Of a stretch of 55,727 bases of DNA, positions 3,962 through 54,326 are shown in pieces. The stretch is from UHGV virus genome UHGV-0036148; one strand, 5' to 3'. Below the pieces are notes generated by a model that was not told the origin of the DNA, did not search any database, and saw only the letters and a program-made list of their open reading frames with translations. The position numbers were made by a program, and so were the translations under genes. Position 1 is the stretch's first letter. Every line of letters starts with the position of its first letter. Origin of the DNA: a virus.

Positions 3962-4120
3962 AATGCTCTCTCCTTTTAAGGTGATTTCTACGCATTTCAG
4001 CGCTGCCGGATTTTTAAAGAGCATTTTGCTTGCTTGAAGTATACAAAATGGATACGTGTAAACAAGACGAATAGCGCCATTATGTGATCCACATCACGCA
4101 ATGGCGCCATTTTGTAAATT

Positions 4121-7686: not shown

Positions 7687-7708
7687 TTATGTGATCGCAA
7701 TCACAATG
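7687..7708. promoter_or_regulatory. CRP-consensus palindrome TGTGA-N6-TCACA
   Basis: ttaTGTGAtcgcaaTCACAatg, perfect half-sites with 6-bp spacer, in a 100-bp intergenic gap. Confidence 0.45.
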
Positions 7709-11528: not shown

Positions 11529-11819
11529 TTAATGGTAGCGGACTTTATCCAGGGGTTTCTCCCCTAAATGGCGTGGTTGCGTTGCGTGGTAGTAGCTGCC
11601 GCTTTCATTTTCCGTATACCATTTTACTGATCCTTTGCGACGTTCTTTAATGCTATTTGGTTTGCATCTTTCCTCGTTTGCAAATCGAATAGCTTTATCC
11701 ACATTGTCTGTTTTATTAATTGCAGGTGATGATTTTCTTTCGTTTTCTCTTTTTATCCTTCTGCGTTCCCTGGCGTTCATTTTGCTATCACATTTTCCAT
11801 ACATAATTGTAACGCTCAT
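11529..11819 (-). CDS. putative N-like antiterminator (arginine-rich motif protein)
   Basis: NARERRRIKRENERK arginine-rich motif near N-terminus; first gene of the leftward operon. Confidence 0.3.
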   Translation of the reverse strand: MSVTIMYGKCDSKMNARERRRIKRENERKSSPAINKTDNVDKAIRFANEERCKPNSIKERRKGSVKWYTENESGSYYHATQPRHLGEKPLDKVRYH

Positions 11820-12160
11820 AATCTGATCTCCGTATATCCTTGATGAAACTTAATAAAAAATCATCTTCGTTAATTGCCGCACTTCCAGCGGCTGACCAGA
11901 TTTTTAATGAGCGGCTTAACATCTTTCAACTAATCCCGCAATCATCGCCGTTTCCGGTGTGACCTTGCTCACTCCAAGCAAGCTGACTCGTCGCCTTGCG
12001 TGCGGTTTCGTGGGGGATGTAACGCTTTAAACACCCCATGCGCCTTGTTATCAGTGCCGCTTTCGGTCCCCCATCGGGGAGTTACTCCACGGTTGACAAG
12101 GTGTTAAGCCTGATTTTTAAAGTGCCAGGAAGCTGCTTTTGTTACCTACGCCCTTCCTTT

Positions 12161-12196
12161 GATTCGCAATATACGCCCCGTAAAACACCGAGTCAA
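12161..12196 (-). promoter_or_regulatory. candidate leftward early promoter (PL-like)
   Basis: minus strand TTGACT - 17 bp - TATATT between cI terminator and N-like gene. Confidence 0.35.
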
Positions 12197-12289
12197 TCCA
12201 TTTTGTATACTTTTTTAAAATATTTTATATGCTATTGATATCTAAACAATAAATAGCGTTTTCTGTTTACGTTTTGGTGTTTTTTTGGG

Positions 12290-12320
12290 CGAAGAAAAGC
12301 CGCCATCCGGCGGCTAATGT
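12290..12320 (-). terminator. rho-independent terminator after repressor gene
   Basis: minus strand GCCGCCGGATGGCGGC hairpin followed by TTTTCTT. Confidence 0.5.
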
Positions 12321-12968
12321 TTATGGCAGGTTTACGATCTTCGCATCAACCACCACGCCCAATATTTTTGACTCTGGATTCATAGGGATCGGCGGATACA
12401 ACGGATTCAGTGAACGCAAAAGTTTTCGGCCTCCATCAATAATCAACTGTTTAAACGTAGGTATCTGCCCTTCCTCCAGTTGTGCTATAACAAGTTTTCC
12501 GTCAATAGCTGGCGCGTGCGGGTCAACGAGTATCATAGTCCCCGCCGGGATGCTTAACCCCTGCGGTGCGTTCATTGATTCACCTTTAGCAACCAGCCAA
12601 TAACTATCATCCGAACAAATAACGCTAGTAGCAACGTGTGGCAATGTTGATCGGTGTGTGCCTTCCATATTGTTTGCTACATCCTTCCAGTCAACAACCG
12701 GATAACTGCCTAAATCACGCGGTGGCGCTCCCGGCAACGTGTTAGAAACAGAATCATCAATGACCATTCCGTCATGAGTAACAGTGAATTGCCGACGCCC
12801 AAGCGCCCGCATGATACGCGCAATATCTTCAAGATTCGGCTCACGGCGACCGTTCAGCCAGTGAGAAAGGCCGCCTTTGGTTATCCCCATAAGATCAGCC
12901 AATGAATCCTGGCTCATGCCCTGCGCCCGCATGAGTTGTTTTGCTAAGTCATACCATTTTGTTTTCAT
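12321..12968 (-). CDS. cI: CI-like repressor (HTH_XRE + S24 LexA-like peptidase)
   Basis: N-terminal HTH (QDSLADLMGITKGGLSHWLNG), C-terminal S24 domain with AKGESM serine motif and K later. Confidence 0.8.
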   Translation of the reverse strand: MKTKWYDLAKQLMRAQGMSQDSLADLMGITKGGLSHWLNGRREPNLEDIARIMRALGRRQFTVTHDGMVIDDSVSNTLPGAPPRDLGSYPVVDWKDVANNMEGTHRSTLPHVATSVICSDDSYWLVAKGESMNAPQGLSIPAGTMILVDPHAPAIDGKLVIAQLEEGQIPTFKQLIIDGGRKLLRSLNPLYPPIPMNPESKILGVVVDAKIVNLP

Positions 12969-13273
12969 GTCGCTACCCTATAACCTAAAAAATTTTGATG
13001 CAAGTCACAAAACGTGTTTTTCAAGTCTTGACCCGTTAGCGCCATTCTGTAAACTTGCTGACAAGGTAAAGCCATACTTGCAATGATGCAAGGAAAAAGA
13101 TAAGGGAAAGCACAAAAAGGCCGACGCCTTAAGCTCTTTAAAAATCCGGTGTCGCTGCGAAGCGAAAAACAAATATCACGCAACGGCGGGATCTGTTGAG
13201 CGGTCAGTCACTGCTATCTAATGCTAATGGGATGCCCGCCCGCGCGTTCATTTTAACCATAGGAGAAAATACA

Positions 13274-13528
13274 ATGAGCATGAACATGATTAGCGAAGTA
13301 TGGAAAGTAAAACTTAACAGCCCGATTCAAAAACTGGTCTTAATGGCTCTGGCTGAAAAGGCAGATAACCGCCGTCACGTCATGGTATCACGACAAGAAA
13401 TTGCAAAAATGTGTGAACTTCCTGTTCATACGGTACATGATGCCTTCGCTGCGTTAATGCATAAAGGGTTTGTTTGTCGTCTTGATGCGTTCAGTGATGT
13501 CTATGTAGTGATGTTACCGGAGGAATGA
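13274..13528 (+). CDS. HTH DNA-binding protein, Cro-like candidate
   Basis: first gene of rightward operon divergent from repressor; AGGAG SD before ATG 13274; HTH-like segment. Confidence 0.45.
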   Translation: MSMNMISEVWKVKLNSPIQKLVLMALAEKADNRRHVMVSRQEIAKMCELPVHTVHDAFAALMHKGFVCRLDAFSDVYVVMLPEE

Positions 13529-25577: not shown

Positions 25578-25620
25578 CTCGATGACTCCATTTTGTTAAT
25601 TAACGGAATAATTCTACCAT

Positions 25621-25642
25621 TTTGTGATCTGTGTTGCATTTT
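25621..25642. promoter_or_regulatory. degenerate CRP-like site upstream of lipoprotein gene
   Basis: tttTGTGAtctgtgTTGCAttt; left half-site perfect, right half degenerate. Confidence 0.25.
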
Positions 25643-25754
25643 CTGCTTACACAAAATGTATTTGTTGATTTATATCAATATACGAAATGTTGTTTTGTCG
25701 GATATTCAAGACACCGGATGAACCGGACGAGCTAACAAGAACGAGGATTAAAAA

Positions 25755-31964: not shown

Positions 31965-32644
31965 TTGTCAGATCTCCATATTGAATTGGTCTGTCGAACA
32001 TACGCGGGCCGCATTTGCTCGCGGCGGCTTAACAGTCCGGCATTGTCATGATGCAAAACAGTGTTATCGCCCAGGTAAATCATCGCGTGGCATGGGTCAG
32101 CGCCTTTAAACGGCTGGCGGATAATCACATCACCGGGCTGAATGTTTTGCGCGTCAACCATGAAAAACCCGTTCAATGGCAGGTTTTTTATGTACAGGTT
32201 TTCCCCACGCAGCCACCACCCATCGCGGCGCTCAAAGTCAGGCAGATCCACGCCGCAAAGGTGATAGGCGTCACGAAAAAGCGAGTAGCAGTCTGTTTTC
32301 CCGTGCTCAAATTTACGGCCTAACAGGTGCGCTACCGGGCGGAATTTTCTTACCCTGCCACCGGAACATAAAAACCACGGTAGGCCGGAAATAACCTGCT
32401 GTTGTCGATCCCGTGCTGACAATACCAATGAATCGTTAGTATGTGAGTGGAAAACGGCTGTTATAACGCCTAATTCGTCAGCTTTGATATAATCGTCAGG
32501 CGAGATTTTAAAGCTGTTGTGCGGCGTTTCAGACACGTTTAAACACGGGTAAAAATAATCGTTATCTATCACCAGCCCACACACTTCTTCGTCAGGGTGG
32601 GCCGCTGCATAGCGAATCATTTTATCTTCAAGTGCCATAATCAA
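31907..32644 (-). CDS. K: tail assembly protein K (JAMM/MPN + NlpC/P60-like)
   Basis: CGLVI, AVFHSHTN (JAMM HxH), AMIYLGDNTVLHH parallel lambda K. Confidence 0.85.
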   Translation of the reverse strand: MIMALEDKMIRYAAAHPDEEVCGLVIDNDYFYPCLNVSETPHNSFKISPDDYIKADELGVITAVFHSHTNDSLVLSARDRQQQVISGLPWFLCSGGRVRKFRPVAHLLGRKFEHGKTDCYSLFRDAYHLCGVDLPDFERRDGWWLRGENLYIKNLPLNGFFMVDAQNIQPGDVIIRQPFKGADPCHAMIYLGDNTVLHHDNAGLLSRREQMRPAYVRQTNSIWRSDKCSNLDLRAIFEDITARCV

Positions 32645-33345
32645 CCCACCTTGCTGGATCCAGGGAAACAGGAAATTGGTAACGGATTAGGGCGCGGAAA
32701 ACGCAAACGGCAACCGCTTAGGCGGTGGCTGCATTTATCCAGCTTCGGATCACTGGTTAGCTCGTCTTTGTCAGTAGCTACGGGGCCGCCACTGTATCTG
32801 CAACCGTCGCCGCGATATTGCCACTGGCAAACGTCAGCGAGAATTGTGCGCCCGGGGATAACCGCCTTGTCAGCATCAATTGGCGTTGACAGTTCATATT
32901 GCACCTGGTCGGCTGTTTCTTCGCTCATCGCCTCAACGACGTAAAAAGATACAGCCTCAATAGATGGATCTGCATCTGGATTGCCGTTGGGGAAGTTAAC
33001 AGCGTCCAGGTATTTTACTTCCACCTGGCGGCGCGTAACCTTCATTCCTCGCAGGTCGTTAAAATCGTTGTTCATCCCGGTGATTAGCCCGCCAATGTTG
33101 GCTACTACCATTTGCGGGCGCGAGTAAACGCCTTCGTTTTTCATTTCGAAGCCAGTAGCCTCGATTGGGTAGCTGTTGTAAGTCACTCCCTTCCAGATAA
33201 CCGGGCCGTAATAGCCATTCGCGCCGGAATGGAAGCGGATAACCTCGCCACCCAGGGGCGTGAGGTCTAATTCAAACAAATCAATTACCGCGCCGACTCC
33301 GGCATCGACGGAATCAATAATCATTTCTGTAGGTATGCTGCGCAT
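32641..33345 (-). CDS. L: minor tail protein L
   Basis: YLDAVNFPNGNPDADP, LSTPIDADKAVIPGR, QWQYRGDGCRYSG, KCSHRLSGC parallel lambda L. Confidence 0.85.
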   Translation of the reverse strand: MRSIPTEMIIDSVDAGVGAVIDLFELDLTPLGGEVIRFHSGANGYYGPVIWKGVTYNSYPIEATGFEMKNEGVYSRPQMVVANIGGLITGMNNDFNDLRGMKVTRRQVEVKYLDAVNFPNGNPDADPSIEAVSFYVVEAMSEETADQVQYELSTPIDADKAVIPGRTILADVCQWQYRGDGCRYSGGPVATDKDELTSDPKLDKCSHRLSGCRLRFPRPNPLPISCFPGSSKVG

Positions 33346-33361
33346 TTTTTCACCTTGTCAT

Positions 33362-33383
33362 TTTGTGATCGCCGTCACGCTAA
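33362..33383. promoter_or_regulatory. degenerate CRP-like site in divergent region between L and plus-strand moron cassette
   Basis: tttTGTGAtcgccgTCACGc. Confidence 0.25.
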
Positions 33384-33473
33384 ATCATACCAAAACGGTT
33401 GATAGCGATTTTTACAATATGTATATTGTACTCAAAAGGAAGCATGGTTAACAAAATGGCGCGGAGGTGTGAG

Positions 33474-33629
33474 ATGACTGATAAGGTGTGGAGGTTGACG
33501 GTATTCCTGTCAGGCGGCAGGGAAATGACTGTGGCTCTGTATAAAGACGAAGGCGAGGCACTGACTGACGCGCTTTTACTTACTGAAGATGACCGCGTTT
33601 TGGGATACAGGATCGAACCTGCCAAATGA
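33474..33629 (+). CDS. hypothetical small protein (51 aa), moron cassette gene 1
   Basis: GGAGGTG SD; plus strand inside minus-strand tail module. Confidence 0.35.
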   Translation: MTDKVWRLTVFLSGGREMTVALYKDEGEALTDALLLTEDDRVLGYRIEPAK

Positions 33630-33642
33630 AAGGTTAACAAAA

Positions 33643-33993
33643 ATGCAAAAATACAGATTAGACGTGTGGACTGATAAATGTGAGTGGGAAAGCATAGGAC
33701 TATTTGACACATTCGAATCAGCGCGTAATGAAGGTTGTGAATTGCTCCGCTGTTGGTCTGGTGCTCGTGATTATTATGTTATTCCGGTGCAAGTGCCGGA
33801 TAAGGTGGAAGAGATGAACCCGAAAGATATTAACTTTAACGTCAATGTTGAATTTGCCGACTCTATGGATCAGGCTTGCCCTGGTGAAATACACGCAAAA
33901 GGTTTCCCGGCAGACAATCCGCAAGCAAAACGCGAATACGAAAAAGCGGCAAAAGATTTCTGTATCGACAATTTGTCTGCGTTCGATAAATAA
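33643..33993 (+). CDS. hypothetical protein (116 aa), moron cassette gene 2
   Basis: ORF following gene 1 on plus strand. Confidence 0.4.
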   Translation: MQKYRLDVWTDKCEWESIGLFDTFESARNEGCELLRCWSGARDYYVIPVQVPDKVEEMNPKDINFNVNVEFADSMDQACPGEIHAKGFPADNPQAKREYEKAAKDFCIDNLSAFDK

Positions 33994-34002
33994 GGCGGCA
34001 AC

Positions 34003-34251
34003 ATGGGGCGGCGCAATCACGGCGATTATGTGTACACGTTGAAACAGGCCGCCCGCCTCGTTGGTTATCATGAACACGAATTTATTGATTTGCTGATTGA
34101 GCGCGGGATACTGTACCAGGTCTGTTTAACGCTGTACCCGAAAGCGAAATACCTACAGGAAAAGTTATTCATCATCATGACGGATGAAAACCAGGTTAAC
34201 CATTCATTCGTCACTGATAAGGGCGTTAATTATCTGCGTGATAACTTATAG
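34003..34251 (+). CDS. hypothetical protein (82 aa), moron cassette gene 3
   Basis: AAGGCGG SD; plus strand. Confidence 0.4.
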   Translation: MGRRNHGDYVYTLKQAARLVGYHEHEFIDLLIERGILYQVCLTLYPKAKYLQEKLFIIMTDENQVNHSFVTDKGVNYLRDNL

Positions 34252-34261
34252 GTGACAGATT

Positions 34262-34378
34262 ATGAAAATAGAAGTTTTGGCGCTAATAATAATGGGATTG
34301 ATAGTATTTGGCGTTCATGCTGTAGATCTGGACTGGAAAACGATAGCGGAAAATATAGCATTAATGGAAATGGAATAA
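34262..34378 (+). CDS. mini membrane/secreted peptide (38 aa)
   Basis: MKIEVLALIIMGLIVFGVHA... hydrophobic N-terminus; GGTGA SD. Confidence 0.3.
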   Translation: MKIEVLALIIMGLIVFGVHAVDLDWKTIAENIALMEME

Positions 34379-34382
34379 TAAT

Positions 34383-34410
34383 AACCCCGCTTCTCGCGGG
34401 GTCGTGTTTA
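34383..34410. terminator. hairpin terminator closing the plus-strand moron cassette
   Basis: CCCCGC-ttctc-GCGGGG hairpin; T-rich on minus side, TCGTGTTTAT on plus side. Confidence 0.45.
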
Positions 34411-34605
34411 TACGCCATCAACCAAAAATAAAACTTCCTTCCCTTCCCGGGATCTACACCCCACGTACCCATCGCCAACGTCGTGAAGATACCATATATC
34501 GCCGTTGTCAGCTTTTACAGTAAGGTCGTTGATCTCATAGTCGTCAAACAATGTAAAAGCGTCAGTTTTGTCAACTACACAAGTCCCGTACATATCAACC
34601 CCCAT
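34408..34605 (-). CDS. hypothetical protein (65 aa)
   Basis: ORF immediately downstream of M. Confidence 0.35.
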   Translation of the reverse strand: MGVDMYGTCVVDKTDAFTLFDDYEINDLTVKADNGDIWYLHDVGDGYVGCRSREGKEVLFLVDGV

Positions 34606-34958
34606 TAGCCGACAACTTGCTCAAATGTTGCGTTTAGCGTGTATACAGGCCCATCTTTGGTCATGCTCCAGCTACGACAAACAAAAAGCCTCTGCACGTT
34701 ATCCATAGATGGCGACCAGTAAAAAGCCTCGATAGCGCCTCGCGCCCTCAAGAATGCTTCTGCCTGGATCGCCACGTTCCCTCCATCACCACATCCCGCG
34801 CTACTGCCTTTAAAAACCAGGGTGTAACTATCAAGTAATGTGTTAATCCCTTTCGCCTGGCGTTGTTCATACCCATCACCAAGTTTAATGACAGATACGT
34901 TTGGCTCCCTGGTCACGCTGTAGCTTCTTTGCGGCGTCCATCTGAAAACTTCTGGCAT
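34605..34958 (-). CDS. M: minor tail protein M
   Basis: FRW...LGDGYEQRQAKGIN...EQVVG parallels lambda M; GGGGGAAT SD. Confidence 0.8.
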   Translation of the reverse strand: MPEVFRWTPQRSYSVTREPNVSVIKLGDGYEQRQAKGINTLLDSYTLVFKGSSAGCGDGGNVAIQAEAFLRARGAIEAFYWSPSMDNVQRLFVCRSWSMTKDGPVYTLNATFEQVVG

Positions 34959-34984
34959 GATTCCCCCTATAAGTTACATATTGC

Positions 34985-35020
34985 ATACATCTTTACGCGC
35001 TTCTACGCGAAAAATGAGAA
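34985..35020 (-). promoter_or_regulatory. conserved intergenic element (copy 1) upstream of M
   Basis: atacatCTTTACGCGCTTCTACGCGAAAAATGAGAAA; near-identical copy at 47609..47645. Confidence 0.4.
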
Positions 35021-35127
35021 ATTCATCACAAGAATTATAACCAGTTTACAAAATGGCTTCACACAGTGCGTGACAATATGTATATAGTAAGCAAGAAGAA
35101 AAAGCAGTACCGACAAAGGAGGCCAAC

Positions 35128-35283
35128 ATGAAGCGTTATGTAGTGGTAATGCTGAACAACGCATTCGAACAGGTGGAAGTGGCGATAGTCAAAGGCTTTG
35201 ATGACGCATTCAAATACGGTCAATTCATGATGAATGCGAAGGAAAACGAGTACCGTGATTTCTTCCTGAAAGTGGTCAACTAA
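35128..35283 (+). CDS. hypothetical small protein (51 aa)
   Basis: AGGAGG SD; plus strand between M and tape measure. Confidence 0.35.
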   Translation: MKRYVVVMLNNAFEQVEVAIVKGFDDAFKYGQFMMNAKENEYRDFFLKVVN

Positions 35284-35301
35284 TGGATTGCGGGGTGGGT
35301 T

Positions 35302-35556
35302 ATGAAATTGGTAGCGATTGGTAAAAATCTGAAAGCACAGAAAAACGCACAGGACCGGATCATCAAAAAGGGCAAGGCTTTATTAAATGCTTTCCTGAGA
35401 AAAGAGGCCACCCCCAAAAAATTACGCGATGGTTACGGTTATAAATTTGATATTAACCCCGATTGGCGGTTATTCAGCGAAGATTTAAAGGCGTGGTTAA
35501 TTATCGACCATCTGGAATATAACAGACACTGTGGGGTTAAAGGGGCGCATAAGTAA
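35302..35556 (+). CDS. hypothetical protein (84 aa)
   Basis: GGGGTGGG SD; plus strand. Confidence 0.4.
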   Translation: MKLVAIGKNLKAQKNAQDRIIKKGKALLNAFLRKEATPKKLRDGYGYKFDINPDWRLFSEDLKAWLIIDHLEYNRHCGVKGAHK

Positions 35557-35691
35557 GGCGGGCATGAAGGGCGATAAATTCACCCGGCGGGGGAACTGGA
35601 ATGTTTGACAGGTAATTTTGGATAGGGTGTATCGCGCGGAATGGTTGTTTATAAATACGAAAATAGCCCCGGCATTGTGCCGGGGTTTGGT

Positions 35692-38600
35692 TTATTTGCG
35701 GCGAGGTTGCAACATTCCTCCAGGGCGTTGCGACTCCCTTGCCATCATTTTCATTGCTACGCGTTCCATTGTCTGCTCAAGCCTGCGGCTATCCTCGTCA
35801 CTAAATCCGTTTGTGGTCTGGACGGTGATGTTTACAGGCATATTGATACCGCCACCGCTGAAAAGATCGCGGCCAGGAATAACCCTGCCATTTTCACCAG
35901 GAATCATATACTGACGCCCGTTGCTCGTCTGGAATAGCTCCGGTATCCCGTGTTCCCCTACGCGATACAGGCTACCACCATTAACCGCACCGCCGTTATA
36001 GCGAGCGCCAGCCAGTCCAAGCGTTTTGGCGGCAGCTACGCCAGTAGTAAGCCCAGTAAGTCCAGTGGCCCCAGCGCCGCCCATCGTGGCAACGTTTGCC
36101 AGGTATGCAGGAGTAGCCCACGCTGATGATAACGCTGCCGCCTCTGCCAGTGCTTTGGTTGTTGCCATAGTTCTTGCTGTATCACCAATCAATTGCTGCT
36201 TGACCCACTCAGTACCCATTTGAACAATCGTACCAATCACAGAGGAAAGGATTGTATTGCCAATGTTAGCCAGCGCCTGTTGCCAGCTTTGAGTACCGTT
36301 AATCAGGCCGACAAGCGCGTTAGTTGCAGATCCGCCCATTGCATCAACAGCATCACCTAACAGTTGGTTGGTCAATGACTGCGCCTTATACCTCTCCCAC
36401 TGAAGTGATAGCATTTCCCTCTCGTGCGCTTTTTCTTGCTCCCTCATATATTGCTCTGTAGCGCCTAAATCTGTGAGCATTTGTTTGCGAACCGCCCATT
36501 CGTTCATCGCCTGCTGAATTGGGTCTAGCTGCCCGCGTAGTTGCAGCTCATTGTTTACCAGATTATCCCAACTAGATTGGCGTTTGCGTTGCTCTTCCGC
36601 CGCAACCAGCGCTTTCCATGCCGTAGTATATTGTTCGGTATTTATTTTTCCGCTTTTAAGTGCGGCGTTTAGCGCATCCTGATCCTCTTTTAATTTCCGT
36701 TGTGCTGCGGCTTCTACGTTGTATTTGTCTGCAACATTCTGGCCCCGCTTCTCAATCTCTTTGCGCAGGCGTTCAGCCTCTTTTAGACGTTTTTTCTCCT
36801 CGCTTTCGCCAGTTTTTTTCCCATGACTGGCCTTTCTTTCAGCTTCGGCGCGTTTCTGCTCGGTGTCGTATGCTTTGGTCATTGTAGCCATGTATTTTTC
36901 ATACGCTTCCCCGGTCAGGTTTGCTTTCTCAGCCTCACGCTTAAACCCATCAATCGCCTTTTCCCTGCTGGCTGTTTTGGAGTCGAGTTTTGCCAGTTCC
37001 AGGCGGCGGTTTGCCAGATCCATTAGTTCTTGTTGATCTGCGTTAAGTGCTGCTGAAGCGTGTTGCGTTGCTGCTGCTGCGCGTTCTGCTTCTGTGGTGA
37101 TTCTTCCGTATGCATCCGCCACCAACCCTAATGAAGTGGCAAGGGTCTTCATTAGCGGATCTGTATCCTGCATAAGCAAAATATATTTGCGCTGCATTTG
37201 ATTAAGGCGGTCGAGAATATCCTCACGCTGCGCCTCTTCCCTGGTCAGGCGGGCTGTGATTTCCTGATTAGCTTTCGATAGGTTGGCGTAAGCGCGTGAC
37301 CCCTCCTCTGCTTTCTCCAGTGCCTGTTTATTCAGCTCCAGCGCCTGCGTGTCCTGGTCAATCTGTTTGTTGAGACTGGCAACGTCTTCCTCTAACTGAC
37401 CCATTGATATTTGTAGTTTATCTGCGCCAGCCAGTTTAGCCGCCTTGCTCATTCGCTCCAGTGATTCGGTACTAACATCCACTGAATCAGCAAGGTTGCG
37501 GTTTGCCTCTGCCGTTTGATCTACGTGATCTACATATGCTGTCAACCCGTAAACAGCAAGCATTAACGCGCCAGGGATACCACCAATCGCGCCCAGAGTA
37601 GCGCTAAATGCTGTTTTTAGTAGTCCCGCATTAGTCGCCGCCGCAGTGTGGGCCGCAGCAAGGCGCTGCTCTGCCGCAGTAAGGGCGTTTGATGCCGCCG
37701 TGTTCTGTGCTTTGGCTACAGCCAATTCTTTCAGCGTCTGAACTTCGAATTTTGTTCCGGCGTTTGCCGCAGCATAAGCCTGCGCCTCTCTCAGCCTTGC
37801 CGCCGCCGCCGCTGCTGATTGCCGTGCTGATACCACCTGAGCGTTAGCTAGCGCCAATTCACTCTGAGCGGCCTGCCGTGCCGCTGCCGTTTGTGCCCTG
37901 GTTGCCTGAGCGTTAGTTAATGCCTCTGCTGTTGCAGCTACGAATTTATTTACCACTCTGCCACCCATCACAGTGGCAAGGCCAATAAATGCAGTAGCTA
38001 TTTCGTTAAGGTTTTCTGACAGGGTTACAACTGCCGAATTAAAAGCACCAATCCCGCCCATAATTGACGAATTGCTGCCGAAAAATTTAGCTGCGTTGTT
38101 GCCTGCAACAGTGAAAGCCTCCTGCATAGTTGGGGTGAGTTTAGAAAACTCAGCATCAACCTCCGCTTTCATTTCCTTAAGGGCTTTAATGATAGCTTCA
38201 CGGGTGATCTTCCCTTCTGCTGCCATCTTGCGCATTTCTGCCGACGATACGCCCAATGATTTAGCCAAACCCTCTGACAGCCTGGTAGCGTTTTCTGTAA
38301 CGGAGTTAAATTCATCGCCATTCAAAACACCTTTGGCGAGGGATTGACCCAACTGACGGATCCCGCCTTCTGCTTCAGCGGCAGAAGCGCCAGAAATGCG
38401 GAATGTTTTGTTAATGGTTTCAACCATATCACCAAGTGCTTGCGTCGATAAACCAGCGTCGCGCGTCGAGCGCTCTAATTTACCGTAAAGATCTGCCGTA
38501 GCATCAAGATCGCTTCGTGAATTTTGCGCGATCTGAAATACACGCTGATTAACGTCTGCCAGTGATTCACCAGCACGAACGCTATTGATTAGCCTGTTAT

Positions 38601-38841
38601 TCACCTCCTGCCAGGCGTTTGCATACTCAATGATTTTTTTTGCTGCCATTGCAGCACCCAGGGCACTGGCAATCGAGGATAGCTTTGACAGTGACTTACT
38701 TGCCTGAGTGGCGGCACTATCCACGCGCTCCAAATCCTTTTCCATTTTGCCAGTTGCGCGATCTACCTCGCGCTGAACAGTCAGAAGCTGACCCGTTTTT
38801 GCATCAACCTCGTAATAAATTGTGCCTAAATTTGTTGACAT
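35692..38841 (-). CDS. H: tail tape measure protein
   Basis: 1049 aa, Ala/Gln-rich coiled-coil, position between chaperone and M; GAGGT SD. Confidence 0.85.
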   Translation of the reverse strand: MSTNLGTIYYEVDAKTGQLLTVQREVDRATGKMEKDLERVDSAATQASKSLSKLSSIASALGAAMAAKKIIEYANAWQEVNNRLINSVRAGESLADVNQRVFQIAQNSRSDLDATADLYGKLERSTRDAGLSTQALGDMVETINKTFRISGASAAEAEGGIRQLGQSLAKGVLNGDEFNSVTENATRLSEGLAKSLGVSSAEMRKMAAEGKITREAIIKALKEMKAEVDAEFSKLTPTMQEAFTVAGNNAAKFFGSNSSIMGGIGAFNSAVVTLSENLNEIATAFIGLATVMGGRVVNKFVAATAEALTNAQATRAQTAAARQAAQSELALANAQVVSARQSAAAAAARLREAQAYAAANAGTKFEVQTLKELAVAKAQNTAASNALTAAEQRLAAAHTAAATNAGLLKTAFSATLGAIGGIPGALMLAVYGLTAYVDHVDQTAEANRNLADSVDVSTESLERMSKAAKLAGADKLQISMGQLEEDVASLNKQIDQDTQALELNKQALEKAEEGSRAYANLSKANQEITARLTREEAQREDILDRLNQMQRKYILLMQDTDPLMKTLATSLGLVADAYGRITTEAERAAAATQHASAALNADQQELMDLANRRLELAKLDSKTASREKAIDGFKREAEKANLTGEAYEKYMATMTKAYDTEQKRAEAERKASHGKKTGESEEKKRLKEAERLRKEIEKRGQNVADKYNVEAAAQRKLKEDQDALNAALKSGKINTEQYTTAWKALVAAEEQRKRQSSWDNLVNNELQLRGQLDPIQQAMNEWAVRKQMLTDLGATEQYMREQEKAHEREMLSLQWERYKAQSLTNQLLGDAVDAMGGSATNALVGLINGTQSWQQALANIGNTILSSVIGTIVQMGTEWVKQQLIGDTARTMATTKALAEAAALSSAWATPAYLANVATMGGAGATGLTGLTTGVAAAKTLGLAGARYNGGAVNGGSLYRVGEHGIPELFQTSNGRQYMIPGENGRVIPGRDLFSGGGINMPVNITVQTTNGFSDEDSRRLEQTMERVAMKMMARESQRPGGMLQPRRK

Positions 38842-39100
38842 GATTTAACCTCATACAAAATGTGATCTATGCCTCTATTTTATACAAAATGGATTTACCT
38901 CAGTGAACACATTTTGTATAAAGAAGCCAAAGGAAAGGGATAGAGCGAAGGGACTTAAAAGGCCGGATTGACCGGAGGAAGCAAAAGAGGATAAGAAAAT
39001 GAAAAACGTAAACTACCACCCCAACGAACATGAGCGCTATGCTGACTTTATCGAGCAAATGTTAAAAGCGCTGAAAAACAAAAACTAAGCGGGGTGAAAT

Positions 39101-39460
39101 ATGAAAAGTCTGGCAAAAATCTTAATCGTGGCGGTACTTGCAGGAGTTGCGCTTAATGCTAATGCTGAGCACTCTCCGTCCGCAAAATACATACTTCGTG
39201 AATGTGCGCATAATGCTCAGTTGTACGATATAAAGCATGGTGACGGTAATGGTGATCTGGAAATGCCATTTAACGTTGGCTGTATTCATTACGCAATGAA
39301 GCCAGTATTAGAAAAAACCGCTGAATGGAAAGATCTTAATAGCAAGTACAATGAATTAAAAGAGGCGGCAAAAAACAATAAAGCGTCACTAAATGCGTTT
39401 AAGGATGGCGAGTCTTATGGTGTAAACGTGGCCCACAGAGTTGATGCGTATTTCAACTAA
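39101..39460 (+). CDS. secreted protein with signal peptide (moron)
   Basis: MKSLAKILIVAVLAGVALNANA signal peptide; opposite strand within tail module. Confidence 0.5.
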   Translation: MKSLAKILIVAVLAGVALNANAEHSPSAKYILRECAHNAQLYDIKHGDGNGDLEMPFNVGCIHYAMKPVLEKTAEWKDLNSKYNELKEAAKNNKASLNAFKDGESYGVNVAHRVDAYFN

Positions 39461-39472
39461 CACAGAATTTTA

Positions 39473-39499
39473 GAGGCCCGGCTAATCCCGGGCTTTTTC
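39473..39499 (+). terminator. rho-independent terminator after secreted-protein gene
   Basis: GCCCGG-ctaatc-CCGGGC followed by TTTTTC. Confidence 0.5.
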
Positions 39500-40162
39500 T
39501 TGCTCGCTATTTTCCATTCTTTTTAGTATCTCCATAGCCTCCCTCATTCCATCGTCATAAGCCTTTTTATCCAGTAATACATCTGGTCGTTTTTGTTTGT
39601 TTCTTGCTTCTGGCGGCGTTTTAGCACGCACAGCGGCCCTATATCCGGTCATTGTCATATTCCACGCTTCTGATTCTGATAACCCCAGGTGAGCAACGGC
39701 AGAATAAACAAACTCCAGTATGTCGAACGTTGGTTTGTATTCACCTTCCTGTCTATCGCTTGCGACCTCTTCAGGGCCATCACCAATTAAGCCGTGGTAC
39801 ATGCAGTGTTGCGCCAGCGTAATAACATCATCAACCGGCATTATTCCCGGTTTTAATCTCAATTTACCCGAAGGAGTGAACCTGCATTCGCCCAATAACG
39901 GGCCTGTTTCGTCGTCTGAGCAACATTTCAGTATGTGGATGGATGTTTGTACTATCTCACCATAACACCGCGCCATAATGCGATTGCGGAGGTCTGGATC
40001 TGTGGGTAATCGTGATGGGTATTTGCTGCCGTGGATAAGTGCGAAATATTCGACAAGCTCACTATCGTTGCCGATTTTAGCCATCGCAGCAAAGCAAGGA
40101 TTAAATTCATAGCGCTTACCGTTCACCACAGCCGCAAATTGTCCTGTACGAACATGGATCAT
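39482..40162 (-). CDS. putative tail assembly chaperone (by position)
   Basis: occupies the G/GT position between major tail gene and tape measure; ATG 40162 with AGGGTGA SD. Confidence 0.3.
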   Translation of the reverse strand: MIHVRTGQFAAVVNGKRYEFNPCFAAMAKIGNDSELVEYFALIHGSKYPSRLPTDPDLRNRIMARCYGEIVQTSIHILKCCSDDETGPLLGECRFTPSGKLRLKPGIMPVDDVITLAQHCMYHGLIGDGPEEVASDRQEGEYKPTFDILEFVYSAVAHLGLSESEAWNMTMTGYRAAVRAKTPPEARNKQKRPDVLLDKKAYDDGMREAMEILKRMENSEQEKARD

Positions 40163-54223: not shown

Positions 54224-54262
54224 GATTTTGTCCCATCTGTCTTTCTGTGGTTTATATATAAC

Positions 54263-54292
54263 AAAATGGCATCGCCGGAGAAATGCCATTTT
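54263..54292. promoter_or_regulatory. perfect 10-bp inverted repeat hairpin in intergenic gap
   Basis: AAAATGGCAT-cgccggagaa-ATGCCATTTT. Confidence 0.4.
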
Positions 54293-54295
54293 GTA

Positions 54296-54317
54296 TACAT
54301 TGTGATACAGATCACAT
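54296..54317. promoter_or_regulatory. CRP-consensus palindrome TGTGA-N6-TCACA
   Basis: cattgTGTGAtacagaTCACAtttt; perfect half-sites, 6-bp spacer, A/T flanks as in CRP consensus. Confidence 0.45.
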
Positions 54318-54326
54318 TTTGTTCAT

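What the first reader, a model, noticed from the sequence alone, without database searches (positions are those of the whole stretch)
33362..34410. Plus-strand moron cassette with its own promoter-like region and terminator inserted between tail genes L and M
Four small plus-strand ORFs (33474..33629, 33643..33993, 34003..34251, 34262..34378) lie between the conserved, minus-strand L and M genes, which are adjacent in lambda. They are bounded by an AT-rich promoter-like region carrying a degenerate CRP-like site and by a GC-rich hairpin. The upstream element acaatatgtatat(t/a)gta recurs before a second plus-strand cassette at 35128..35556. The products have no recognisable motifs and are candidates for lysogenic-conversion or anti-defence functions.
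Basis: partly seen in the sequence, partly recalled or inferred. Interest (0 to 1): 0.5.

Follow-up and report, generated by a model that had tools for sequence, protein, structure and literature searches.

The report
Reverse-strand accessory operon inside tail genes
A small four-gene operon with its own promoter and terminator sits backwards between two tail genes of an mEp021-type E. coli phage; it is real and conserved, and it is an ordinary "moron-type" accessory cassette whose function is still unknown.

Summary
The window is a complete mEp021-like (mEpimmI) temperate coliphage genome. At 33362..34410 four plus-strand ORFs lie between tail genes L and M (plus an extra 65-aa late-strand gene). 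All four are under purifying selection (dN/dS 0.12-0.24). They are conserved at this position in 7 isolated phages, 34 complete E. coli genomes and about 45 viral contigs.

A conserved sigma-70-like promoter (TTGATA-17-TATATT) with a CRP-like site about 62 nt upstream precedes them. A bidirectional hairpin terminator follows. GC content is lower than in the flanking tail genes.

The claim of "no recognisable motifs" is wrong. ORF3 is a KilAC/ANT-domain protein with a predicted MerR/Xis-type winged helix. The second cassette encodes a ParE-like protein. A third reverse cassette lies at 38884..39497.

ORF1, ORF2 and ORF4 are orphan families almost confined to these phages. ORF2 has a small beta-beta-alpha-beta domain and an invariant C-terminal tail, and it travels with ORF4, a membrane peptide.

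Expression in lysogens and function were not testable. The anatomy is moron-type and the genes are already annotated as hypothetical. This is a new member of a known kind, of modest interest.

The parts
33364..33379 (.). CRP-like palindrome TGTGATCGCCGTCACG, centred about 62 nt upstream of the inferred start of cassette-1 transcription
   Evidence: 9 of 10 core positions. TGTGAT and CAC are invariant or nearly so in 41 distinct related sequences. The position relative to the start site is inferred from the -10 hexamer.
33399..33427 (+). Promoter-like site P1: -35 TTGATA, 17-nt spacer, -10 TATATT
   Evidence: 10 of 12 match, best in the region. TTGAT and GTATATT are invariant across relatives. 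No transcript data.
33414..33430 (+). Shared element ACAATATGTATATTGTA overlapping the -10; second copy at 35073..35089
   Evidence: Nearly invariant in relatives. The right arm of the apparent palindrome varies (TTGT or TTTT), so the palindrome itself is not strictly conserved.
33447..33460 (.). Invariant 5'-UTR element GTTAACAAAATGGC, one copy of the phage-wide CATTTTGT/ACAAAATG motif. On the minus strand it supplies TTGTTA, which with TACAAT (33430..33425) forms a possible leftward promoter toward L.
33474..33629 (+). ORF1, 51 aa; orphan family (phrog_29559); named 'transporter' in some RefSeq records, with no support found here
   Evidence: dN/dS 0.24 over 41 distinct alleles. A profile comparison with the ORF2 N-domain is collinear over the full length, P=0.0024.
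33643..33993 (+). ORF2, 116 aa: N-terminal beta-beta-alpha-beta domain (residues 1-50, deeply diverged alleles), poorly modelled linker, nearly invariant C-terminal 47 residues ending in a helix
34003..34251 (+). ORF3, 82 aa: stand-alone KilAC/ANT domain, predicted MerR/Xis-type winged helix-turn-helix
34262..34378 (+). ORF4, 38 aa: hydrophobic N-terminal segment (VLALIIMGLIVFGVHA), a membrane or signal-like peptide
   Evidence: Conserved in 30 loci, dN/dS 0.20. A homologue directly follows the ORF2 homologue in an unrelated phage contig.
34383..34403 (.). Bidirectional intrinsic-terminator-like hairpin shared by the cassette (+) and the 65-aa late-strand gene (-)
   Evidence: Annotated as a terminator on both strands in mEp021.
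34408..34605 (-). 65-aa late-strand gene directly after M (phrog_3249, unknown function); lost together with the cassette in L046
35015..35089 (+). Control region of cassette 2: CRP-like TGAGAAATTCATCACA (35015..35030), ACAAAATGGC (35048..35057), -35 TTCACA (35058..35063), 17-nt spacer, -10 TATATA (35081..35086), shared element (35073..35089)
   Evidence: The consensus scan did not call this promoter because the -10 lacks the final T.
35128..35283 (+). Cassette 2 gene 1, 51 aa (phrog_29810), possible partner of the ParE-like protein
   Evidence: dN/dS 0.07. Absent in L021 and L031 although the next gene is intact there.
35302..35556 (+). Cassette 2 gene 2, 84 aa, ParE-like toxin domain
   Evidence: PF24732, E=3.7e-11, 43.3 bits against a cut-off of 24.4. 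RefSeq name 'ParE family toxin-like protein'. dN/dS 0.08.
35665..35687 (.). Bidirectional terminator-like hairpin between cassette 2 and the tape-measure gene
38884..39497 (+). Third reverse-oriented cassette between the tape-measure gene and the tail chaperone genes: ACAAAATGGA, TTTACC, 17-nt spacer, TATAAA (38884..38922); a 29-aa ORF (38999..39088); a 119-aa protein with a signal-peptide-like N-terminus (39101..39460); hairpin (39475..39494)

Best explanation
The region is a self-contained accessory ('moron-type') operon that belongs to the standard gene set of mEp021-like (mEpimmI) temperate coliphages. It is one of three such units placed backwards inside the late tail operon.

Shown here:
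- Four real protein-coding genes lie on the strand opposite to the tail genes.
- They are preceded by a strongly conserved sigma-70-type promoter sequence with a CRP-type site upstream, and followed by a hairpin that looks like a terminator in both directions.
- GC content is lower than in the flanks.
- The unit is dispensable, at least in one natural deletion derivative.

Inferred mechanism:
1. Host RNA polymerase starts at P1 near 33434, independently of the Q-dependent late transcript. cAMP-CRP bound near -62 acts as a class-I-type activator.
2. The transcript covers ORF1-ORF4 and stops at the hairpin. The same hairpin also stops unmodified polymerase coming the other way.
3. During lytic growth, antiterminated late transcription reads through in antisense and probably shuts the cassette off.
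4. ORF3, a KilAC winged-helix protein, is most likely a DNA-binding regulator. A possible target is the element shared by the -10 regions of cassettes 1 and 2.
5. ORF2 and the membrane peptide ORF4 are the likely effector pair, because they also travel together without ORF3 in an unrelated phage. They probably act at the inner membrane, in superinfection exclusion, defence or counter-defence.
6. ORF1 is probably a stand-alone copy of the small domain that forms the ORF2 N-terminus.

Rough confidence by layer: anatomy and conservation 0.9; autonomous transcription 0.7; expression in the lysogen 0.45; ORF3 as DNA-binding regulator 0.5; membrane-level exclusion, defence or counter-defence by ORF2/ORF4 0.2.
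For: - Identity of the phage and conservation of the cassette at the L/M position.
- Coding reality: dN/dS is 0.24 (ORF1), 0.24 (ORF2; 0.11 for its C-terminus), 0.12 (ORF3) and 0.20 (ORF4), against 0.04 for L. The antisense ORFs are broken in relatives.
- Promoter and CRP-like site: with phylogenetic footprints.
- Terminator.
- Composition: GC 0.43 for the cassette against 0.49-0.53 for L, M and the tape-measure gene, with reversed GC skew.
- Dispensability: L046 keeps the promoter up to GTTAACAAAAT and then joins the 3' end of M.
- Hot spot for extra small genes: a 77-93-aa, a 67-aa and a 58-aa ORF, and an HNH insertion, appear in relatives.
- ORF3: Pfam ANT/KilAC above cut-off; predicted fold matches MerR, excisionase and RDF winged helices.
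- ORF2: confident beta-beta-alpha-beta N-domain, invariant C-terminal tail.
- ORF2+ORF4 pairing outside this phage group, flanked by consensus promoters.
- Late genes depend on a Q-like regulator in mEp021.
- Moron definition and the HK97 gp15 precedent, a tail-region moron that blocks DNA entry: PMC3594210, listed; the details are from my own knowledge.
Against: - No transcript data exist, so promoter use, CRP dependence and expression in lysogens are all inferred from sequence.
- The control regions carry the phage-wide CATTTTGT/ACAAAATG motif (27 copies against 6.4 expected). The motif also sits just upstream of the -35 of the early promoter for the N-like gene. If it is an operator of the immunity repressor, the cassette would be silent in lysogens.
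- The plus-strand U-tract after the hairpin is poor (UCGUGUUUAU), so the hairpin is a better terminator for the late strand.
- The right half of the CRP-like site weakens in some relatives (GCCACG), and its left half overlaps a copy of the CATTTTGT motif.
- The apparent palindrome over the -10 is not conserved as a palindrome, which weakens the operator idea.
- No search gave ORF1, ORF2 or ORF4 a function.
- L046 comes from a metagenome, so its viability is unknown.
Confidence: 0.55

Rival explanations
1. Early accessory genes under immunity control, not a moron. The cassette promoters would be kept off in the lysogen by the phage repressor, or by another phage regulator that recognises the CATTTTGT/ACAAAATG motif. 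They would fire early after infection or induction. ORF2/ORF4 would then serve host takeover or counter-defence for the infecting phage.
For: - The motif is over-represented 4-fold (27 against 6.4) and invariant in the control regions of cassettes 1 and 2.
- The same ACAAAATGG-(-35) arrangement occurs at the strong early promoter upstream of the N-like gene (TTGACT-17-TATATT) and at cassette 3.
- A related copy lies in the spacer of the PR-like promoter at 13028..13056.
- In an unrelated phage contig the ORF2+ORF4 pair sits between consensus TTGACA-17-TAAGAT/TATAAA promoters, as early genes of lytic phages often do.
Against: - The factor that binds the motif is unknown.
- CI-type repressors normally have few, palindromic operators next to their own gene, whereas 27 copies are scattered over early and late regions and some lie inside coding sequence.
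- In cassette 1 the motif lies in the 5'-UTR and upstream of the CRP-like site, not over the core promoter.
- Nothing in PADLOC or the structure searches marks ORF1, ORF2 or ORF4 as counter-defence proteins.
Confidence: 0.2
2. A second immunity or antirepressor module, comparable to immI of phage P22. ORF3, named 'antirepressor' in databases, would inactivate the prophage repressor, and the small upstream proteins and the -10 element would keep it in check.
For: - ORF3 hits the ANT/KilAC family and weakly hits phrog_63 'anti-repressor Ant' (E=0.008).
- mEp021_71 and the RefSeq orthologues carry that name.
- ORF3 is embedded in the late region with its own promoter, as P22 ant is (my own knowledge).
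- ORF3 is the most conserved gene of the cassette (74-100% identity).
- The mEpimmI paper counts the KilAC-like protein among near-core genes (PMC11893012).
Against: - ORF3 is only the KilAC domain. It aligns to positions 274-355 of the 431-position Ant profile and lacks any N-terminal Bro-N, KilA-N or AntA part.
- Its predicted fold groups with DNA-binding MerR/Xis winged helices, and no antirepressor structure was retrieved.
- ORF1 shows no ribbon-helix-helix signature or any Pfam hit.
- A constitutive-looking promoter in front of an antirepressor would destabilise lysogeny.
- The cassette can be lost.
Confidence: 0.1
3. Toxin-antitoxin or addiction modules. Cassette 2 would be a type II ParE/RelE-family pair (51-aa antitoxin, 84-aa toxin). 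Cassette 1 would be a related stabilisation or abortive-infection unit that uses the same kind of small domain and the same autoregulated promoter element.
For: - ParE_like domain, E=3.7e-11.
- A small gene 18 nt upstream, present in 53 of 55 loci and very conserved (dN/dS 0.07).
- The shared -10 element could be an autoregulatory operator.
- The secondary-structure pattern of the 51-aa protein read from its sequence resembles ORF1 and the ORF2 N-domain (inference only).
Against: - Two relatives (L021, L031; by its identifier L031 appears to derive from an isolate genome, my reading, not checked) keep an intact 84-aa gene directly behind the promoter with the 51-aa gene gone.
- The 84-aa protein varies from 62 to 100% identity while the 51-aa protein stays at 82-98% (mostly 90% or more), so there is no co-variation.
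- The 51-aa protein matches no antitoxin family, and profile comparison with ORF1 and the ORF2 N-domain found nothing.
- Nothing in cassette 1 resembles a toxin.
Confidence: 0.1
4. The conserved control region mainly serves the tail genes. The GTTAACAAAATGGC and TACAAT/TAAAAT sequences would form a leftward promoter that restarts transcription of L-K-I-J after the hairpin, and the plus-strand ORFs would be passengers.
For: - The scan finds TTGTTA-18-TACAAT on the minus strand (9 of 12).
- The G/T polymorphism in the shared element converts TACAAT into TAAAAT, both good -10 hexamers.
- Minus-strand copies of CCATTTTGT followed by a -10-like sequence also precede M and the tape-measure gene.
Against: - An unregulated tail-gene promoter in a prophage would be costly.
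- No comparable -35/-10 pair is found on the minus strand at cassette 2 (my reading).
- It does not explain purifying selection on four plus-strand genes.
- It is compatible with, not exclusive of, the main explanation.
Confidence: 0.05

Closest known systems
Genes mEp021_71 to mEp021_74 of phage mEp021 (MH706966.1) and their counterparts in mEp044, mEp010, mEp554, mEp013, mEp515, MagusPhagus and E. coli prophages
   Same: Direct orthologues at the same place between L and the 65-aa gene/M, 84-99% DNA identity, same promoter region and terminator.
   Different: mEp021 carries one more small gene between ORF2 and ORF3 (mEp021_72). Alleles of ORF1 and of the ORF2 N-domain differ strongly. None has been studied: the mEpimmI paper (PMC11893012) does not discuss these cassettes.
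Morons of lambdoid phages, e.g. HK97 gp15, lambda bor and lom (PMC3594210)
   Same: Extra genes between conserved late genes, with their own promoter-like and terminator-like signals and deviating base composition. The HK97 gp15 precedent shows that a small membrane protein encoded in the tail region can block DNA entry (my own knowledge).
   Different: This unit has four genes including a putative regulator, and it is a near-constant feature of the phage group rather than a sporadic addition. Expression from the prophage is not shown. There is no sequence similarity to any described moron product.
P22 immI region (mnt-arc-ant)
   Same: A regulatory unit with its own promoter lying inside the late gene region, encoding a small first gene and an 'Ant'-family protein (my own knowledge; ANT hit).
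   Different: ORF3 is only the 82-aa KilAC domain. No Arc/Mnt-type ribbon-helix-helix protein was detected, and no evidence of antirepressor activity exists.
ParE/RelE-superfamily type II toxin-antitoxin pairs (for the neighbouring cassette 2)
   Same: An 84-aa protein with a ParE_like domain follows a small gene in one operon behind a promoter carrying a conserved element.
   Different: The upstream protein belongs to no known antitoxin family. The 'toxin' occurs intact without it in two relatives. There is no co-variation.
DUF7336-like small phage proteins (50-60 aa, beta-beta-alpha-beta)
   Same: The ORF2 N-domain superposes on many such uncharacterised phage proteins. The best is DUF7336 of Escherichia phage 2725-N35: Foldseek E=8e-4, TM 0.73 on the target, 27% identity.
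   Different: No Pfam hit by sequence at E up to 1. ORF2 adds an invariant 47-residue C-terminal tail. The function of this fold class is itself unknown.

Membership tests
Moron (independent transcription unit added to a phage late operon) | Lies between two genes that are adjacent in related phages | tested here: met
   L and M flank it and they are neighbours in lambda (established gene order H-M-L-K-I-J). In L046, L follows M after 125 nt, although that is a deletion derivative and not an ancestral empty site.
Moron (independent transcription unit added to a phage late operon) | Own promoter | tested here: inconclusive
   10 of 12 consensus match, with -35 and -10 invariant in 41 distinct sequences. 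No transcript or reporter data.
Moron (independent transcription unit added to a phage late operon) | Own factor-independent terminator | tested here: met
   Hairpin at 34385..34401, -16 kcal/mol, z about -3. The U-tract is weaker on the plus strand.
Moron (independent transcription unit added to a phage late operon) | Base composition different from neighbouring genes | tested here: met
   GC 0.43 against 0.49-0.53 in L, M and the tape-measure gene; GC skew reversed.
Moron (independent transcription unit added to a phage late operon) | Expressed from the repressed prophage and of benefit to the host | not testable with these tools
   Needs RNA-seq of a lysogen and phenotype tests. A shared motif with an early promoter raises doubt.
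KilAC / ANT domain proteins (PF03374) | Match to the family model above the curated cut-off | tested here: met
   ORF3 residues 10-82 match model positions 23-105 of 108, 29.1 bits against a cut-off of 25.3. Relatives carry PF03374 precomputed.
Phage antirepressor (Ant-type) | Full-length architecture with an N-terminal Bro-N, KilA-N or AntA domain in front of KilAC | tested here: not met
   ORF3 is 82 aa and contains only the KilAC part. It aligns to positions 274-355 of the 431-position phrog_63 profile.
Phage antirepressor (Ant-type) | Binds and inactivates the immunity repressor | not testable with these tools
   The fold search returned DNA-binding winged helices, not antirepressor complexes. 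That is not a test of activity.
Type II toxin-antitoxin, ParE/RelE superfamily (cassette 2) | Toxin domain | tested here: met
   PF24732 ParE_like, 43.3 bits against a cut-off of 24.4.
Type II toxin-antitoxin, ParE/RelE superfamily (cassette 2) | Obligatory linkage to a cognate antitoxin gene | tested here: not met
   The 51-aa gene precedes it in 53 of 55 loci, but L021 and L031 keep the intact 84-aa gene without it. The 51-aa protein matches no antitoxin family.
Type II toxin-antitoxin, ParE/RelE superfamily (cassette 2) | Toxicity neutralised by the partner | not testable with these tools
   Needs expression experiments.
CRP-dependent class I promoter | TGTGA-N6-TCACA site centred near -61.5, -71.5 or further by helical turns | tested here: inconclusive
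   9 of 10 core matches at both cassettes. Centres are about -62 and -71 from start sites inferred from the -10 hexamers. The left half-site is invariant and the right half mostly so. Binding and activation are untested.
HEPN / HepS-like proteins | R-x(4-6)-H motif and HEPN fold | tested here: not met
Known anti-phage defence systems (PADLOC-DB) | Match to any defence-protein model | tested here: not met
   No hit at E up to 1 for any of the seven small proteins.

The most novel reading that the evidence does not exclude
ORF2 and ORF4 could form a previously undescribed, mobile two-gene module. ORF2 would be a small variable beta-beta-alpha-beta 'recognition' domain joined to an invariant tail, and the tail would dock it to the ORF4 membrane peptide or to a conserved target.

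The module would act either as a superinfection-exclusion or defence device with allele-specific targets, or as an inhibitor of a host abortive-infection nuclease. The invariant tail shows a short resemblance to the C-terminal helix region of the HEPN protein HepS, which senses the tail-tip protein J of siphoviruses. ORF1 and ORF3 would be its modulator and regulator.

The scattered CATTTTGT motif would in this reading mark a dispersed regulon of mEpimmI phages that links the three reverse cassettes to the early promoters.
Probability: 0.1. Interest if true: 0.65.

Novelty: new member of a known kind. Interest (0 to 1): 0.3.

Why it matters
mEpimmI phages are reported to be as common as lambdoid phages in human faecal E. 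coli (PMC11893012). All of them examined here except one deletion derivative carry this operon and two sister cassettes inside the tail gene cluster. If the cassettes are expressed in lysogens, they are candidate fitness or phage-resistance factors of gut E. coli. If they are early genes, they are candidate counter-defence factors. Either way the products are orphan proteins with no assigned function, so they are cheap and well-defined targets for deletion and expression tests. As it stands, the finding adds an ordinary example to the known class of accessory cassettes in phage late operons, and it corrects the claim that the products lack recognisable domains.

Tried and rejected
1. Paralogy of ORF1, the ORF2 N-domain and the 51-aa protein of cassette 2.
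   - BLASTP found nothing.
   - hhalign gave only a suggestive full-length match for ORF1 against the ORF2 N-domain (P=0.0024) and nothing for the 51-aa protein.
   - The extra N-terminal domain of the natural 172-aa variant P0048 is a duplicate of the ORF2 N-domain (E=7e-4), not of ORF1.
3. Ipe, the one studied accessory protein of mEp021, is encoded elsewhere (mEp021_29) and is unrelated.
4. Positive selection on ORF2. The N-domain has high dN (0.38), but dS is saturated (1.6) and dN/dS is 0.24. This indicates deep allelic lineages shuffled by recombination, not detectable positive selection.
5. Minus-strand coding under the cassette was rejected.
6. Structured RNA. No Rfam match near any family threshold in 32500..40000.
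7. Wider relatives.
   - The ORF2 profile found only 14 proteins among 1.84 billion representatives.
   - The genome-contig scan for the ParE-like protein found nothing.
   - The phage collection holds ORF2 only in mEpimmI phages.
   - The foreign contig L005 matched no phage record and its neighbours are uninformative.
8. LexA box. The shared element reads ACAA-N8-TTGT, not CTGT-N8-ACAG (my reading of the sequence), so it is not an E. coli LexA box.
9. Repressor operators. I looked for operators of the immunity repressor resembling the shared element in 11800..13300 and found only nut-like repeats.
10. LF82 prophage transcriptomes (PMC9928086) concern other prophages and give no expression data for this group.
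Full report
**What the window is.** The cassette region matches seven isolated coliphages at 90-92% identity: mEp044, mEp010, mEp554, mEp013, mEp515, mEp021 and MagusPhagus. It also matches prophages in 34 of 5426 complete E. coli genomes, the best at 99.1%. These are the Nus-dependent, non-lambdoid 'mEpimmI' phages described in PMC11893012. The gene order on the minus strand is tape measure (35692..38841), M (34605..34958), a 65-aa gene (34408..34605), L (32641..33345), K, I and J. This is the lambda order H-M-L-K-I-J (established knowledge), interrupted by plus-strand inserts.

**Checking the observation.**
- The promoter-like site TTGATA-17-TATATT (33399..33427) is the best match in the 3.5-kb scan (10 of 12).
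- The CRP-like site TGTGATCGCCGTCACG (33364..33379) has 9 of 10 core positions.
- The hairpin at 34385..34401 folds at -16 kcal/mol on either strand, well below shuffled controls, with a U-rich tail that is better on the minus strand.
- The 17-nt element recurs with one mismatch at 35073..35089.
- The loose palindrome pattern is not significant on its own. An exact 13-mer shared by the two short upstream regions was reached in only 2 of 3000 shuffles.
- The cassette is 43% GC against 49-53% for L, M and the tape-measure gene, with reversed GC skew.

**Are the ORFs genes?** I collected 55 related loci: two phage records, five E. coli genomes, two assembly contigs and 46 IMG/VR contigs.
- All but one carry the cassette in the same place.
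- Pooled Nei-Gojobori estimates give dN/dS of 0.24 (ORF1), 0.24 (ORF2), 0.12 (ORF3) and 0.20 (ORF4). The two genes of the second cassette give 0.07 and 0.08.
- The long antisense ORFs are interrupted by stop codons in about two thirds of relatives.
- The plus-strand genes are therefore real.

One contig (L046) keeps the promoter region up to GTTAACAAAAT and then continues with the 3' end of M. ORF1-ORF4, the hairpin and the 65-aa gene are gone, while L and M stay intact. The unit can therefore be lost, although the viability of that phage is unknown. Relatives also carry extra small genes between ORF2 and ORF3 or between ORF3 and ORF4, or an HNH insertion. None has a Pfam assignment. The site behaves as a hot spot for accessory genes.

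**What the products are: ORF3.**
- It is a KilAC/ANT domain (PF03374, above the gathering score) and nothing else. It aligns only to the C-terminal part of the Ant profile.
- I therefore read it as a likely DNA-binding regulator. The database name 'antirepressor' is untested.

**What the products are: ORF2.**
- It belongs to a tiny family: 54 clusters in 5.8 billion proteins and 14 hits among 1.84 billion representatives, all from E. coli or its phages.
- Its first 50 residues fold with high confidence into a beta-beta-alpha-beta domain.
- Residues 57-89 are poorly modelled.
- The last 47 residues are almost invariant (ADSMDQxCPGEIHxxGFPxDxPxAKREYEKAAKDFCIDNLSAFDK) and end in a helix.
- The N-domain exists in deeply diverged alleles (dS about 1.6), but without excess amino-acid change.

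**What the products are: ORF1 and ORF4.**
- ORF1 (51 aa) gives a collinear but weak profile match to the ORF2 N-domain (P=0.0024).
- In one variant (P0048, locus L003) the ORF1 position is taken by a second copy of the ORF2-type domain fused to ORF2.
- ORF4 is a 38-aa hydrophobic peptide.
- In an unrelated phage contig, an ORF2 homologue is followed directly by an ORF4 homologue without ORF3, between two consensus promoters. I take ORF2+ORF4 to be the functional core.
- PADLOC, NCBIfam and the PDB gave nothing for ORF1, ORF2 or ORF4.
- The RefSeq name 'transporter' for ORF1 has no support in any search here.

**Regulation.**
- Alignment of 41 distinct cassette-1 and 47 distinct cassette-2 control regions shows invariant blocks:
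  - TGTGAT..CAC, the CRP-like site;
  - TTGAT, the -35;
  - ACAATATGTATATT, the -10 and the shared element;
  - GTTAACAAAATGGC in the 5'-UTR.
- In cassette 2 the blocks are TCACA, AGTTTACAAAATGGCTTCAC and CAAGATGTATA.
- With start sites inferred from the -10 hexamers, the CRP-like sites are centred near -62 and -71. These are within about 1 nt of the classical class I positions (inference).
- CRP-type palindromes are enriched in the whole genome (9 against 1.6 expected).
- The 8-mer CATT[TC]TGT is also enriched (27 against 6.4 expected).
- ACAAAATGG immediately precedes the -35 at three promoters:
  - cassette 2 (TTCACA-17-TATATA);
  - a third reverse cassette (TTTACC-17-TATAAA, 38884..38922);
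  - the strong early promoter upstream of the N-like gene (TTGACT-17-TATATT on the minus strand, 12196..12168).
- I could not identify the protein that reads it.
- This matters for the interpretation. If the motif is an operator of the immunity repressor, the cassettes are early genes and not prophage-expressed morons.

**The neighbouring cassettes.** Cassette 2 encodes a 51-aa protein and an 84-aa ParE_like-domain protein (PF24732; 'ParE family toxin-like protein' in RefSeq). It looks like a toxin-antitoxin pair. However, two relatives keep the intact 84-aa gene directly behind the promoter without the 51-aa gene. The two proteins also do not co-vary. I therefore leave membership open. Cassette 3 (38884..39497) encodes a 29-aa ORF and a 119-aa protein with a signal-peptide-like start, followed by a hairpin. 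All three cassettes have low GC and end at hairpins that face both ways.

**How it most likely works.**
- Shown: a conserved, dispensable four-gene unit on the opposite strand, with promoter-like and terminator-like signals.
- Inferred:
  - host polymerase transcribes it independently of the late operon, helped by cAMP-CRP;
  - the hairpin insulates it from the tail genes;
  - Q-modified late transcription (mEp021 has a Q-like gene) reads through in antisense during lytic growth;
  - ORF3 regulates;
  - ORF2 and ORF4 act together, probably at the membrane.
- The HK97 gp15 moron, a small membrane protein in the tail region that blocks DNA entry (PMC3594210 and my own knowledge), is the nearest functional precedent. 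There is no sequence similarity to it, and no test was possible.

**Verdict.** Expression in lysogens and function are unproven, and the statement that the products lack motifs is wrong. The genes are already deposited as hypothetical or 'putative antirepressor' in several phage and RefSeq records. This is a new, uncharacterised member of a known kind of element, of modest interest.

Noticed in passing
whole window; e.g. 4043..4115, 12199..12206, 13043..13050, 25589..25658, 33359..33366, 33451..33458, 35048..35055, 38855..38917, 54261..54322: The 8-mer CATT[TC]TGT occurs 27 times on both strands against 6.4 +/- 2.1 in shuffles, mostly in intergenic regions. Either ACAAAATGG abuts a -35 hexamer or CCATTTTGT abuts a -10-like TAnAnn. 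Two inverted pairs (38884..38917 and 54261..54294) have exactly 18 nt between the 8-mers. This may be the site of an unidentified regulator that links early promoters and the reverse cassettes.
   Followed up: partly
4083, 7690, 11958, 12994, 33364, 35015, 47372, 49142, 54301 (16-nt sites): CRP-type palindromes TGTGA-N6-TCACA with at most one mismatch occur 9 times against 1.6 expected. The two perfect ones (TGTGATCGCAATCACA at 7690, TGTGATACAGATCACA at 54301) lie immediately after -10-like sequences, where a bound protein would repress rather than activate.
   Followed up: partly
38884..39497: A third plus-strand cassette lies between the tape-measure gene and the tail chaperone genes. It has a promoter-like TTTACC-17-TATAAA bracketed by an inverted repeat of the motif, a 29-aa ORF, a 119-aa protein with a signal-peptide-like N-terminus (no Pfam hit), and a hairpin. 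It corresponds in position to mEp021_63.
   Followed up: partly
34408..34605 (minus strand): A 65-aa gene (phrog_3249, no Pfam hit) overlaps the stop codon of M and has no counterpart in the lambda tail gene order. It is deleted together with cassette 1 in contig L046.
   Followed up: partly
L021 2334..2755 and L031 (IMG/VR contigs): The ParE-like 84-aa gene is intact and sits directly behind the cassette-2 promoter, but the 51-aa upstream gene is missing. This is hard to reconcile with a classical toxin-antitoxin pair. A different 58-aa ORF follows downstream in L021.
   Followed up: partly
L046 1681..1810: A natural deletion derivative: the cassette-1 promoter is kept up to GTTAACAAAAT and then joins the 3' end of M. 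ORF1-ORF4, the hairpin and the 65-aa gene are lost.
   Followed up: yes
L005 3910..4530 (ENA metagenome contig, unrelated phage): Homologues of ORF2 (51% identity) and ORF4 (61%) form a two-gene unit without ORF3, flanked by consensus promoters TTGACA-17-TAAGAT and TTGACA-17-TATAAA. The contig matches no phage record in the collection.
   Followed up: partly
L003 4001..4519 (protein P0048): A 172-aa variant of ORF2 carries two tandem copies of the small N-terminal domain and takes the place of ORF1 plus ORF2.
   Followed up: yes
33425..33454 (minus strand): A possible leftward promoter, TTGTTA-18-TACAAT, overlaps the cassette -10 and points toward L. The common G/T polymorphism turns TACAAT into TAAAAT, which is also a good -10.
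   Followed up: partly
33898..33984 (ORF2 residues 86-114): Short local resemblance to the C-terminal helix region of the HEPN abortive-infection protein HepS, which senses tail-tip protein J: 14 of 29 identical, including FCIxNLxAF.
   Followed up: partly
11895..11912, 12109..12125, 13133..13150: Three copies (two direct, one inverted) of CCnGATTTTTAAnGnGC flank the repressor gene. They probably correspond to the nut sites reported for mEp021.
   Followed up: no
34975..34998: The conserved sequence GTTACATATTGCATACATCTTTA (GTTACATTTTGTATATATCTTTA in relatives) lies just upstream of M on the opposite strand. From memory it resembles the tandem half-sites bound by OmpR at ompC and ompF. This was not tested.
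   Followed up: no
33474..33629: RefSeq names the ORF1 orthologues 'transporter'. A 51-aa soluble-looking protein with no family hit gives no support for that name.
   Followed up: yes
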